From Eledone cirrhosa (lineage: Eukaryota): a stretch of DNA of 64,000 bases. Both the position numbers and the translations under genes were made by a program. Under the pieces are notes generated by a model. It was not told the DNA's origin. It was given only the letters and a program-made list of their open reading frames with translations, and searched no databases. Positions within the stretch are counted from its first letter, which is position 1. Every line of letters begins with the position of its first letter. Where the stretch lies: NCBI GenBank assembly GCA_964016885.1, contig OZ024752.1:11718001-11782000 (forward strand). Direction: 5' to 3'. Of this stretch, positions 10,402-58,240 are shown piece by piece.

Positions 10402-10835
10402 GAAGAGATATTTAATTTGTTGGAAATCCAACAAATATAGATGTTTATAACTGATTCAGAGCACTCGACAGCTTTCTGGAGTAAGTATTCAATGATATTA
10501 AATAAATGGAAACTATATTTATAAAACCATATTTATTCTATCATATATATTTCAAGGGTACCAAAAAGTTTGGTACGCTATCATCAGATAAAATACAAAA
10601 TGTTTTGTAAATATTTGACATGACCAAGGATAATATACCTGAACGGTTCAAGCCATCGCTTTCCAGGGATAACTTGAACCGCTAAGGCATATTATCCTTG
10701 GTCATGTCAAATATTTACAAAACATTTTGTATTTTATCTGATGATAGCGTACCAAAATTTTTGGTACCCTTGAAATATATATAATAGAATAAATATGGTT
10801 TTATAAATATAGTTTCCATTTATTTAATATCATTG
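10402..10835. mobile_element. Foldback element family D (arms 10490-10652 / 10673-10835)
   Basis: Inverted arms with a left-sided tail, bounded by microsatellites; homolog at 42290-42703. Confidence 0.9.
10730..10791 (+). ncRNA. Type I hammerhead motif (family D); mirror copy at 10534-10595 on - has a non-cleavable AUG triplet
   Basis: TATTTTAT CTGATGA tagc GTACCAAA att TTTGGTAC cctt GAAATATATATA ATAGAATA. Confidence 0.7.
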
Positions 10836-11066
10836 TATATATATATATATATATATTGTTATGCTTTGGGAGGGCCATGTTGCCAATAAGAAACACACGC
10901 ACCACTTGCTTTCACTGCAATTTATTATAAATTAAATTCATAAATTTAAGAATTTATAAATTTCCGGTTGTAACACATGCGCAAACTAAGCACATAACAT
11001 ACACAAAAACAAGATGGCGTAGGACAGAACAAAGGAGAGGCACAAAAACAAAGAAAAGAATCCCCA

Positions 11067-11109
11067 GTCACTGAAGAGGTCACAGAATGTGTGACGAAAG
11101 AACTTTGAC
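11067..11109 (+). ncRNA. Minimal type I hammerhead motif (family E)
   Basis: GTCA CTGAAGA g GTCACA gaatg TGTGAC GAAAG aa CTT TGAC. Confidence 0.8.
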
Positions 11110-11197
11110 AATATATGAACAATTGTCCGGTTGTGGAACCAACCAACCAACCGGAAATTTATAAATTCTTAAATTTATAAATTTAATTTATAATAAA

Positions 11198-12092
11198 CTA
11201 GCAGTAAAGCCCGGCGTTGCTCGGGGTCGCTCAGTAGCTGTGTTAAAGTTACAATGTTAAGTTTCTTTCTTGGCTTAAAAACTGTAGTGTCTACTGTGCA
11301 GACTTGCATGTGGTGTTTTTGATTAATATTCCCTCAACCAACAATATGCCTTATGAAGTTAAGAAAACATAACGATAACCCGAATGTTATAACAAAAGAG
11401 GATGCTGGGGATAGAAACTGCACTGGTTATTTATTAACAAAGATCGAAAATGTAAACACTGCAACGCAGAGAAAAACATTAGCGTAACCAAATTATCAGT
11501 TATGTCTGTCTGCACGCCTATATCACCTCTCTGTACGACTGTCTGTCTGCACGCCTATATCACCTCTCTGCACGACTATCTGTCTGCACGCCTATATCAC
11601 CTCTCTGCACGACTGTCTGTCTGCACGCGTATATCACCTCTCTGCACGACTATCTGTCTGCACAACTGTCTGTCTGCACGCCTAACGACGAAATATTTGC
11701 TTGTTTTACGTAGTCTTTAAATAGACTTGTTTTCAAGTAAAAATATTGTTTTAAAATGCTTTTAAATGGAAATGAAGCAAAACGGAAGCTTAGTGTTCGA
11801 ACTGATGAATTTTGCAGGTCAATATTTTGCTGGCTCGTAATTTTTTACGTAAGACGCTCAATGTAAACAGAACAAAGGGAAATAACTGATAACTTACGCT
11901 CAAAAATCGATACATTATATTCGATTTCGTCACATAGGGTGGGTCAATTTGAAATTTTTTTTTTCCGATGTCTTCGCTAGGGCTCAATGTACAAGTATAG
12001 CAATTTCGGTGCAATTCCGTGAGAGATTCTAAGAGGAGATGTGTGCCAAAAATCGATAGACAGACAGACAACCACAGTTTTATATATATAGA
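11198..12092 (-). mobile_element. Non-autonomous Helitron with internal ~35-bp minisatellite (11503-11683)
   Basis: On - strand starts TCtatatatataaaa, has (GTCT)n, ends hairpin cccgagcaacgccggg...CTAG; inserted at A|T with no TSD, shown by the uninterrupted family E copy near 57260. Confidence 0.9.
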
Positions 12093-12214
12093 TTGGAGTG
12101 AAAGCAACTGGTGCGTGTGTTTCTTATTGGCAACATGACCCTCCCAAAGCATAACAATATCGGTTTCAACACAAGTTTTCAGATAAAGAATCTTGCTAAA
12201 TAAATTCAGAAACG

Positions 12215-12243
<29 letters not shown>

Positions 12244-12248
<5 letters not shown>

Positions 12249-31066: not shown

Positions 31067-31084
31067 CTTTATATATATATATAT

Positions 31085-31366
<282 letters not shown>

Positions 31367-31454
31367 ACCAAAGCTCTTATATCGGTTCACATGTATAAAA
31401 ATAAATGGACATAAACGAGTTCTTCAAGTTCGATCGATCGAATAACTGATTATT

Positions 31455-34535: not shown

Positions 34536-34580
34536 AATATTGCTGATGAGTTGTAACAACAACGAAACTAGTTCAATATT
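34536..34580 (+). ncRNA. Canonical minimal type I hammerhead ribozyme (family I)
   Basis: AATATTG CTGATGA GTTGT aaca ACAAC GAAAC ta GTT CAATATT: perfect 7-bp stem I, 5-bp stem II with G-C closure, palindromic stem III AACTAGTT, GUU site. Confidence 0.9.
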
Positions 34581-41977: not shown

Positions 41978-42778
<801 letters not shown>

Positions 42779-42914
42779 GTGTGTATATATAACGGCGATG
42801 AATTAGTTTTGCGAGGTTTTTTATATGAAGTCGTGTGTCGAAACAAATATTGTTATACTTGGGGAGGGTCATATTTGTGTAATAACATTGCCAGAATTAA
42901 TAACAGAACACACT

Positions 42915-43232
42915 CACTGTAAAACTAGAAACGTAGTCTATAGCATAAGATGTACAGAGGGTGCTTGCAGAAACATGACAACAACATACATAGGCGAGAC
43001 AGCTCGTAGCATAGGTGAAAGGATAGACCAACACTGGGAGGAACTAAAAGGACGAAAAACGGTTCAGTACTATACGAACATGCCAGACAACAACACGACG
43101 GTAATATAGACAACATAGAAATTAGAATAAATATCTAAACATAGAAATGACCCAGCAGATAGGCAAATCAGAGAGGCCAGTGAAATAGAACTTAGCAGGC
43201 CAAAGCTGAACAGAAAAAATGAATGGAATAAC
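42915..43232 (+). pseudogene. GIY-YIG (Uri) endonuclease remnant of Penelope-like type, frameshifted
   Basis: CKTRNVVYSIRC...YIGETARSIGERIDQH, then in shifted frames SVLYEHARQQHDG and RQIREASEIELSRPKLNRKNEW. Confidence 0.88.
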
Positions 43233-43524
43233 AGCAACACCCAAACAAACAAAACTGACCTAAGAGAAGTATAAATAAATAAATAAATAAATAAATAAAT
43301 ACATACATACACAAGCACAATAACAACAAACATATAAACACACACTAGTAAACTAAGATAGACTACAATAACCAAAGCACAGTCACCCAAACACGAACAC
43401 ACATCAAACACTATACACACACGCAAACGCATGCGCAGAGAAGAAGATAAAAATAAATAAATAAATAAATAAACGGATTAAATAAAGATGGCGAAGACAT
43501 ACAATACAACAGAAGGAAACATAA

Positions 43525-43576
43525 TAGTACCACTGATGGTGTTGCAGATGTGCAACGAAAGAACTTTGTTAGACTA
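43525..43576 (+). ncRNA. Hammerhead motif in the 3' region of the Penelope-like element (core CTGATGG, probably decayed)
   Basis: tagtacca CTGATGG t GTTGCA gatg TGCAAC GAAAG aa CTT tgttagacta; same stem III as family E. Confidence 0.7.
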
Positions 43577-43762
43577 TATATATGTGTTTGTGTCTATATT
43601 ATATCTGTATTTTTGACAGTTGGTCAGTCAATGGTAACATTGAGGACCGAATAAATTAAATTAACTGATATAAAAGATTCAGAAGCGAAAACCAACCAAA
43701 CAGTCAGTGTGTTCTGTTATTAATTCTGGCAATATTGTTACACACATATGACCCTCCCCAAG

Positions 43763-43793
<31 letters not shown>

Positions 43794-56780: not shown

Positions 56781-56915
56781 ATAAAAATAACAGATTAAGC
56801 AAAGAATCGCTGCTTTGGATTTTAGTCTTCAAATTTATTATTATTACTATATATATGTATGTATGTATATATATATATGTATGTATGTATATATATATGC
56901 ATATATATATATATA

Positions 56916-57387
56916 TTGCTATACTTTGGGAGGGTCGTGTTGCCAATAAGAAACACACGCACCAGTTGCTTTCACTTCAATTTATTATAAATTTATAAAT
57001 TTTATAAATATAAATTTTATAAATTTCCGGTTGGTTGATTTGTTCCACAAACGGATGGTTGTTCATATATTGTCAAAGTTCTTTCGTCACACATTCTGTG
57101 AGCTCTTCAGTGACTGGGGATTCTTTTCTTCGGTCACTGAAGAGGTCACAGAATGTGTGACGAAAGAACTTTGACAATATATGAACAACCATCCGGTTGT
57201 GAAACCAACCAACCGGAAATTTATAAAATTTATATTTATAAAATTTATAAAAATTTATAATGAATTGAAGTGAAGCAACTGGTGCGTGTGTTTCTTATTG
57301 GCAACATAACCCTCCCAAAGTATAACAATATCGGTTTCAACACACGTATTCAGATAAAGAATCTTGCTAAACAAATTCAGAAACGAA
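56916..57387. mobile_element. Family E foldback (arms ~56916-57114 / 57133-57330) plus right tail
   Basis: Inverted arms; homolog of 10856-12217. Confidence 0.9.
57133..57175 (+). ncRNA. Minimal hammerhead motif (family E); mirror copy at 57072-57114 on -
   Basis: Identical to 11067-11109. Confidence 0.8.
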
Positions 57388-58240
57388 AAAAAATATATAT
57401 ATATATGTATGTATGTATAGCTGAAAAGCTAGCAAAAATAAGTCAAAGTCACAACGTGCCGCCGCTCACATATATGTATGTATGTTTGTATGTATGTACG
57501 TATATATATGTTTGTATGCACACAAAAACATGTAAACAAGCAAAACACGTCGCGAAGAAAAATCTCCATTCTGAGTCTCTATTACTGCCGCTGCTCTTTT
57601 GCTGAATTGAGCGCGACTCAAGGCGAACGCGAAAGCATTGACGTGTATGCGTGTGCTGCTTCTCAAGTCGCTGTGTTTCTGTGCAGGCTCAAAGTAAAGC
57701 CCGACGCTGACTTGATGCAAATCCACCATCGGCGGCTCACTTCGACGGCAATGCCAGACGATGCGAAAAAGAGAGAGGAAGAAAGTCACGTTGGACGACT
57801 GGACATCCTGGTGGACTGGTTTCAGATGTGATTCATGTGAAACGAGGATATTAAACTGGAGATTAACGCATTGGTGTCGGAACAATTCAGTCTTAACGCA
57901 AACTTGATGAAAGCTTCGATTCCATTGAAACAACAGAAAACAATGAAAGGTTTGTTGTCTCTATATATCAATTACTATTGCTTCGTATTTTCACTCATCT
58001 GACCTTCTTGTTTATTTCTATACATATACACTTCTTCCAAACCTTTCATTCCTTTCTCTCCTGCACCATTTCTCTCTCTTCCTCTCTCTCTCTCTCAATC
58101 TCTCTCTCTCTCTCTGTCTCTCTCTCTCTCAATCTATCTCTCTCTCTCTCCCTCTCTCCATCTACATATCTACATAAATACATACATATATACATATATA
58201 CATGCATAAATACATACGTATGTACATATACATATATATA

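What the first reader, a model, noticed from the sequence alone, without database searches (positions are those of the whole stretch)
42791..43767. Linking element: GIY-YIG endonuclease remnant, hammerhead and inverted terminal piece in one insertion
Seen: a frameshifted GIY-YIG domain (NVVY..C...YIGET.R...R..H...R.I.EA..I....P.LN) is followed ~300 nt later by a hammerhead. An inverted copy of the 3' end with a ~60-nt extra tail sits at the 5' side. Its stem III (GAAAGAACTTTG) and terminus (ttgggagggtcat) match the non-coding family E at 10856 and 56916, while stem II differs but still pairs (GTTGCA/TGCAAC vs GTCACA/TGTGAC). Established: this is Penelope-like element architecture. Inference: the non-coding foldbacks are 5'-truncated products or derivatives of such elements.
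Basis: partly seen in the sequence, partly recalled or inferred. Interest (0 to 1): 0.75.

Follow-up and report, generated by a model that had tools for sequence, protein, structure and literature searches.

The report
Penelope retrotransposon with enlarged polymerase fingers
This is a broken, cut-short copy of a very abundant Penelope-type jumping gene whose back-to-back layout likely comes from copying one RNA from both sides of a DNA cut, which is largely known; the new part is that its family's copying enzyme carries a conserved 70-residue insert that may mark an unnamed branch of these elements.

Summary
Window 42791-43765 is a dead, 5'-truncated, two-armed copy of a high-copy Penelope-like element (family F). 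Its relatives encode RT plus a C-terminal GIY-YIG (open frames up to 1147 aa).

Three corrections:
- This copy's hammerhead has a core change (A9 to G).
- The 'tail' and the terminus shared with family E are the first 27 codons of the ORF, not non-coding DNA.
- E is the 3' end of its own sister autonomous element (65% aa identity), not a derivative of F.

In 51 of 54 two-armed copies exactly one arm carries the tail. This fits priming from both target strands at two internal RNA sites. One-sided tails are in print, and this scan noted the rule earlier in other families of this genome.

New here: F, E and their animal relatives have a motif A-to-B' interval of about 126 aa, against 56-57 in Neptune- and Nematis-type elements. 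They form a separate branch even with the insert removed. The insert sits at the telomerase IFD site but was not shown to share its fold. I found it in no paper searched; Repbase and Arkhipova 2006 were not seen.

The parts
42791..42920 (-). Inverted arm: last ~74 nt of the element end plus the long tail; 3' end points left into a TA tract
42791..42872 (-). First 27 codons of the PLE ORF (start codon at 42872-42870), spanning the pLTR end and the tail
   Evidence: the same frame runs on for 175 aa in L168 and L176; homologous to the E N-terminus
42791..42846 (-). Tail proper (long class, ending at reference position 64-66), present on this arm only
42916..42920 (.). 5-nt overlap (microhomology) joining the two arms head to head
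   Evidence: both alignments cover these bases
42916..43765 (+). Main arm: 3' 850 nt of family F, no tail, running into a TA tract
   Evidence: 92.6% to L159
42918..43274 (+). C-terminal GIY-YIG endonuclease remnant with CCHH residues; two compensating 1-nt indels near 43059 and 43131
43529..43570 (+). Minimal type I hammerhead motif: stem I 43529-32/43567-70 (weak), core 43533-39 with A9 changed to G, extra nucleotide 43540, stem II 43541-46/43551-56, 2-bp stem III; predicted cut after 43566
   Evidence: numbering and descriptor from PMC4209133
42702..42790 (.). TA tract, left flank (target)
43766..43793 (.). TA tract, right flank (target)
56913..57395 (.). Family E two-armed copy (sister PLE, 3' UTR only); tail on the right arm only
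10853..12244 (.). Family E two-armed copy, main arm split by a ~880-bp insertion (about 11198-12078); tail on the right arm only

Best explanation
This is a dead, 5'-truncated, two-armed copy of an abundant Penelope-like retrotransposon (RT plus C-terminal GIY-YIG), likely made when the element's protein nicked both strands of a TA tract and copied one RNA twice from two different internal start sites. Shown: the family, its ORF, the hammerhead motif in the 3' UTR, three fixed end points that all lie in the first 28 codons of the ORF and abut TA runs, and one tail per two-armed copy. Inferred: the template is a read-through RNA covering the 3' UTR and the next copy's first codons; one cDNA starts at the near site (no tail), the other at a far site (tail of 51-53 or 64-66 nt); both stop early and are joined head to head, here through 5 shared bases. 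Family E fold-backs are the same product of a sister autonomous element, cut shorter. The hammerhead would cut as a dimer or with protein help, and this copy's core is likely inactive. The family's RT carries a conserved ~70-aa insert between motifs A and B', predicted to be a folded subdomain; by its position it would most likely brace the template-primer hybrid, as the telomerase IFD does (untested).
For: Family: 150 of 22,444 candidates scored, all 94-100% identical to the 47-aa query. Ten loci picked for long frames gave ORFs of 546-1147 aa running into the GIY-YIG; RVT_1 hit E 2.8e-5, below cut-off. Model pLDDT 92; best matches are telomerase RTs, Z 15.1, rmsd 4.5, 383 aligned. Ends: of 119 loci, 54 were two-armed, 52 single, 9 without a callable end, 4 ran on into a next copy; of the 54, tail on one arm 51, both 1, neither 2, Fisher p 1.4e-11. 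Three end classes. E: 12 of 30 loci have thumb/endonuclease sequence upstream; ORF 866 aa, 65% to F, and window E copies 87-96% to its 3' UTR. In vitro precedent for cutting and extending both strands and for two internal start sites that bound the tail: PMC11167929. Insert: interval 125-129 aa (5th-95th percentile) in 100 of 121 aligned rows, 115-157 in 68 of 150 representatives with both motifs, against 57 and 56 in Neptune- and Nematis-type elements of the same genome.
Against: Everything mechanistic is read from finished insertions. Loci were the best-scoring matches, not a random sample; flanks were only 1.5 kb for 58 of the 119, so long inverted arms count as single; L089 and L096 are near-identical and may be one event. 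About half of the callable copies have no inverted arm. About half of the junctions show short gaps instead of overlaps (read by eye, no control). Stem I of the F hammerhead has a mismatch and the minimum-energy fold does not give the hammerhead. No uninterrupted ORF from the start codon was seen among the 7 run-on starts found (longest 175 aa). In PMC11167929 the start site is not homologous to the target, whereas here the ends abut TA. The insert did not superpose on the TERT IFD at low rmsd.
Confidence: 0.8

Rival explanations
1. One cDNA is made and the inverted arm arises by self-priming, snap-back or a template switch (possibly on an antisense RNA), not by a second priming from the other target strand.
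For: Proposed for rotifer PLEs with palindromic junctions (PMC3846280, passages). Some copies hold extra internal inverted pieces between the arms (e.g. L132, L133, L139, L190).
Against: Both arms end at fixed RNA 3' sites facing outward, their ends are anti-correlated (51 of 54), and the arms usually stop at unrelated 5' points. A snap-back copy would repeat the same end.
Confidence: 0.12
2. Two independent insertions landed in one TA tract in opposite orientation.
For: TA tracts collect many such elements; 155 of 160 ends are followed by a TA run within 100 nt (no background control).
Against: No TA between the arms here, which overlap by 5 nt; independent events would not give one tail per pair.
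Confidence: 0.03
3. Family E is a non-autonomous retrozyme-like derivative mobilised by F, with this copy as the link.
For: Shared hammerhead type and 79-82% identity over 77 nt at the end; retrozymes are proposed PLE derivatives (bioRxiv 10.64898/2026.07.22.740005).
Against: E has its own RT+endonuclease ORF directly upstream of the same hammerhead and end in 6 of 6 loci fetched for long frames (the hammerhead pattern missed in 1); the shared end is coding, with 11 of 18 differences at third positions; no tandem E arrays were seen in the loci printed.
Confidence: 0.04
4. The insert-bearing lineage is already catalogued (Repbase, Arkhipova 2006) within Nematis or the paraphyletic Neptune group, so the family is just a new member.
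For: Linker cysteine spacing is Nematis-like (6-9 residues before the last Cys in 48 of 49; Fig. S2 of PMC8557442). The Nematis-type row is the nearest outgroup (SH-aLRT 87, flagged as a long-branch join). The lineage is large, so curators may have met it.
Against: No row of Fig. S1 with a C-terminal endonuclease has a long A-B' interval; six motifs of this lineage gave 0 hits in that paper's supplement; the paper states that canonical PLEs lack the IFD.
Confidence: 0.5

Closest known systems
C-terminal-endonuclease Penelope-like elements in general (PMC8557442 Fig. 2 legend; PMC3846280 Pen2a_Av)
   Same: Single ORF with RT then GIY-YIG; 5' truncation; inverted 5'-truncated copy; tail on one end; pLTR and tail cover the first codons of the ORF; Asn-rich insert in the ORF; hammerhead in the pLTR.
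   Different: Tail is 51-66 nt (two classes) rather than 30-40; RT has a ~70-aa insert between motifs A and B'.
Nematis clade
   Same: CX4CxxC linker with a short spacer before the last Cys; CCHH endonuclease; C-terminal endonuclease.
   Different: A-B' interval 126 against 56 aa; TDKS instead of SDK-G; KDHK instead of KTHK; long separate stem in the tree.
Neptune clade
   Same: Linker Zn-finger-like motif, CCHH, TA targets, hammerhead.
   Different: Neptune has a ~25-residue spacer, ADKG, KIHK and a 57-aa interval.
Naiad/Chlamys and telomerase RT (IFD-bearing)
   Same: Extra sequence at the same A-B' site; length within the TERT range (126 against about 113 in human TERT and 79 in Naiad-Amil, hand-counted); TDKS occurs in some Chlamys.
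   Different: Endonuclease is C-terminal (139 of 140); hammerhead present; no low-rmsd match of the insert to TERT IFD.
Poseidon of Anolis (PAc), PMC11167929
   Same: Fixed internal start sites inside the ORF's first codons; tail between them; AT-rich target.
   Different: PAc start sites lie ~111-118 nt into the ORF with the hammerhead overlapping the start codon; here the hammerhead is ~210 nt upstream of it and there are three end classes that abut TA.
Minimal hammerheads of metazoan PLEs, PMC4209133
   Same: Long stem II, short stem I, extra nucleotide after position 9, G10.1-C11.1, self-complementary stem III.
   Different: F stem I has a mismatch; this copy has A9 changed to G.

Membership tests
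Penelope-like elements (endonuclease-bearing) | Telomerase-like RT and GIY-YIG in one ORF | tested here: met
   met in family copies, the window copy holds the endonuclease only
Penelope-like elements (endonuclease-bearing) | CCHH motif with two Cys between GIY and YIG | tested here: met
   Cys 99% and 94%, first His 99% conserved in 121 rows; second His seen in F and E
Penelope-like elements (endonuclease-bearing) | pLTR, tandem or inverted copies, one-sided tail | tested here: met
Minimal PLE hammerhead | Core, extra nucleotide after A9, paired stems with compensating changes | tested here: met
   for the families (two families only, so few independent changes); the window copy itself fails at A9
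Minimal PLE hammerhead | Self-cleavage | not testable with these tools
   needs an in vitro assay
Neptune | Linker motif with long spacer; short A-B' interval; RT tree position | tested here: not met
   spacer 7 against ~25; interval 126 against 57; separate branch from 4 motif-labelled rows
Nematis | Linker motif with short spacer | tested here: met
Nematis | Short A-B' interval and KTHK motif as in the aligned members | tested here: not met
Nematis | RT phylogeny with named reference members | tested here: inconclusive
   only one motif-labelled row (L237) was available; no named references could be used
Naiad/Chlamys | N-terminal endonuclease | tested here: not met
   endonuclease after RT in 139 of 140 proteins with both motifs
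Hydra | No CCHH motif; modified linker | tested here: not met
   CCHH present; the Hydra-type row L245 lies far away; KDHK is shared
Penelope/Poseidon | No linker Zn-finger-like motif | tested here: not met
   linker Cys 100% conserved
TERT-type IFD | Same fold as the telomerase insertion in fingers | tested here: inconclusive
   194-residue model: TERT Z 5.2-6.3; 101-121 residues at rmsd under 4, 128-143 only at rmsd 5.8-12.5
Non-LTR retrozymes (for family E) | Non-coding tandem arrays without an own ORF | tested here: not met
   own ORF upstream

The most novel reading that the evidence does not exclude
F and E belong to an unnamed, widespread clade of C-terminal-endonuclease Penelope-like elements whose RT carries a conserved, telomerase-sized insertion at the IFD site, breaking the rule that only telomerases and N-terminal-endonuclease PLEs have one; these elements insert by an obligately asymmetric double priming, one near and one far start site on a single RNA.
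Probability: 0.4. Interest if true: 0.6.

Novelty: new variant of a known kind. Interest (0 to 1): 0.38.

Why it matters
The locus itself is one dead copy among very many. Two by-products matter to specialists. First, PLEs are the closest relatives of telomerase, and whether the IFD is ancestral or arose several times is open (PMC8557442, Discussion passage). A large C-terminal-endonuclease lineage with a 70-residue insert at that site adds a data point and a protein to test. Second, the one-tail-per-pair count turns a qualitative remark in the literature into a rule that a reconstituted reaction can test. Practically, short hammerhead fold-backs in this genome should be extended upstream before being called retrozymes or MITEs.

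Tried and rejected
Rfam at gathering scores: no match in the window. Pfam on the whole 1147-aa frame: none; the RT scores below cut-off. Sequence search of solved structures gave only weak RT palm hits.

Expression: no RNA holder listed; four contig runs were laid and cannot show ends, cleavage or circles.

A conserved hairpin at the start sites: folds of the end-plus-tail region were not better than shuffles (z -0.3, +0.4, -1.3; mononucleotide shuffles). Minimum-energy monomer and dimer folds did not recover the hammerhead.

My first reading of the tail as a non-coding leader ending at the start codon was wrong (corrected).

TERT-IFD fold match: no clear match.

First tree kept the insert and a very long LINE row that fell inside the ingroup; it was rebuilt without both. 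Two proteins were skipped there for missing motifs.

RNA editing as the source of A9-to-G: A>G at 29 sites per 5145 bases against T>C at 8 per 2599, too weak to use.

Target-site duplication cannot be read inside TA tracts.

Paper searches that found no description of the insert; supplement motif search; scan notes.

Full report
1. Observation. The stretch 42791-43765 sits between two TA tracts. A GIY-YIG remnant runs 42918-43274; its first part reaches the Pfam cut-off (22.7 against 22.6 bits, E 1.2e-4). Both motif halves are in one frame and the middle is displaced by two compensating 1-nt indels near 43059 and 43131. A hammerhead-like motif lies at 43529-43570. An inverted copy of the 3' end (94% over 66 nt) with a tail fills 42791-42920 and overlaps the main arm by 5 nt.

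2. The family (F). A search of the own genome (3.0 Gb) with 47 residues gave 22,444 candidates, of which 150 were scored, all 94-100% identical. Candidates are not copy numbers and probably include sister families. Ten loci picked for long open frames hold ORFs of 546-1147 aa, with an Asn-rich stretch in the longest, an RT, a CX4CxxC linker and the GIY-YIG, followed by the same hammerhead and end. An AlphaFold2 model of 738 residues has pLDDT 92, and telomerase RTs are its best matches (Z 15.1, rmsd 4.5, 383 aligned). The closest named protein is from Octopus vulgaris (69%); another is from Holothuria (41%); most of the 187 relatives at E <= 1e-30 are unnamed. The window copy is 92.6% identical to the nearest of 60 copies.

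3. The tail is coding. Where a copy runs on past the tail, a frame opens at the ATG inside the element end and continues through the tail (175 aa in L168 and L176). The inverted arm thus encodes the first 27 residues. The terminus shared with family E is this start: 18 differences in 27 codons fall 5/2/11 on codon positions 1/2/3, and similarity drops upstream. The same overlap of pLTR and tail with the first codons is described for a rotifer PLE (PMC3846280, passages).

4. Family E is a sister element. In 12 of 30 E loci, thumb or endonuclease sequence lies upstream of the hammerhead, 51-68% identical to F. Six loci fetched for long frames gave ORFs up to 866 aa, 61-67% identical to F, ending in the E-type end. 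The two window copies match that 3' UTR at 87-96%. The copy at 10853 continues at 12079 after an insertion of about 880 bp. So the fold-backs are short products of their own autonomous family.

5. Hammerhead. The core is intact in 67 of 81 motifs in 60 F loci, 21 of 35 in the 29 nearest loci, and 30 of 36 in E. On 23 distinct rows, 94.9% of cells pair; stem II has two both-sided changes between F and E, stem III keeps G15.2 paired with C or U, and F stem I has one mismatch. These are two families, so few independent events. The layout is the minimal hammerhead of PMC4209133 (parts 1-2 of 4 read), which cleaves weakly and as a dimer. A9-to-G occurs in 8 of 30 main arms among the window copy and its nearest copies, and in 1 of 81 motifs in the wider set. 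It needs 4 changes on a poorly resolved tree, so inheritance from one source and recurrence cannot be told apart. Ribozyme-dead mutants still insert in vitro in PMC11167929.

6. Insertion footprint. Ends fall in three classes: no tail, 51-53 nt, 64-66 nt; nearly all run into TA. Of 119 loci (61 F, 29 nearest F, 29 E; the queries lacked the tail), 54 were two-armed, 52 single, 9 had no callable end and 4 ran on. Of the 54, the tail was on the inverted arm only in 20, the main arm only in 31, both in 1, neither in 2 (Fisher p 1.4e-11). One pair of loci may be a duplicate, and short flanks hide long inverted arms in 58 loci. PMC11167929 (parts 1-2 of 4 read) shows in vitro that a Poseidon protein cuts and extends both strands and starts at two internal sites that bound the tail. 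The simplest reading is that each strand primes at a different site on one RNA and the two short cDNAs are joined. That step is inferred. [quoted passage not shown] I had noted it before looking.

7. The RT insert. Between motif A and motif B' F has 126 residues. Among 121 aligned rows, 100 had both motifs, with 125-129 between the 5th and 95th percentile (range 86-130), and the insert has conserved positions. In 150 representatives from a 50%-identity library, 68 had both motifs, all 115-157. That search gave 2,539 proteins at E <= 1e-30, which may include other clades. Of 266 proteins, those where the pattern matched showed TDKS in 105 of 119, KDHK in 113 of 119, a linker spacer of 6-9 in 48 of 49, and the endonuclease after the RT in 139 of 140. 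Other PLEs from this genome, labelled by me from motifs in Craig et al., have 57 (Neptune-type, 4 rows) and 56 (Nematis-type, 1 row). By hand count in Fig. S1 of PMC8557442, Penelope has 56, Naiad-Amil 79 and human TERT about 113. With the insert dropped, 20 insert-bearing rows form one side of a long branch (1.43, SH-aLRT 100) against 6 outgroup rows. The ingroup was chosen by similarity to F, the outgroups are few and unnamed, and Poseidon, Naiad, Athena and Coprina are missing, so this shows distinctness, not rank. The insert is modelled with high confidence but aligns to TERT beyond the core only at high rmsd: same site, fold homology not shown.

8. What is known. PMC8557442 (passages, section 12, supplement parts 54 and 57 and searches) describes the architecture and states that canonical PLEs lack the IFD. 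The 2026 retrozyme preprint (parts 1-3 of 5; supplements closed) links retrozymes to pLTRs. An octopus repeat annotation (PMC13282606, passages) lists Penelope families without clades or hammerheads. Nine searches gave no description of this insert in the listings or the parts read. Arkhipova 2006, Repbase and the Fig. 8 data set were not seen and may hold members of this lineage.

9. Verdict. The finding as written is real and ordinary for the class. Interest 0.38.

Noticed in passing
window 43539 and L072-L100: The A9-to-G core change is shared by 8 of 30 nearest copies but 1 of 81 motifs in the wider family; either a ribozyme-dead source copy kept jumping or the site mutates repeatedly (RNA editing not excluded, not supported).
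   Followed up: partly
window 42369-42700 and 10486-10839: Another fold-back family in TA tracts; the two copies are about 70% alike, and one lies directly left of the finding.
   Followed up: no
window 31070-31392 (-): Single-armed 3' end related to F (80% over 221 nt), no tail, cut inside the hammerhead, with an expanded internal TA run.
   Followed up: partly
window 34543, 59704, 22174: Further minimal hammerhead motifs of other families; the one at 34543 has a fully palindromic stem III.
   Followed up: no
window 11198-12078: About 880-bp insertion with an internal 37-bp repeat splits the family E copy.
   Followed up: no
L227, L229, L230, L233 (Neptune-type), L237 (Nematis-type), L245 (Hydra-type): At least four other PLE lineages with long frames coexist in this genome; labels are mine, from motifs.
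   Followed up: partly
L032:2874-6317: Asn-rich stretch of about 130 residues in the N-terminal part of the F ORF, shorter in E; similar inserts are known from rotifer PLEs.
   Followed up: no
L153, L157, L167, L168, L176, L180: Head-to-tail partial tandems of F, the layout that supplies read-through templates.
   Followed up: partly
L166: Three direct repeats of the last ~48 nt of the element end, each followed by TA, as if the near site was primed repeatedly.
   Followed up: no
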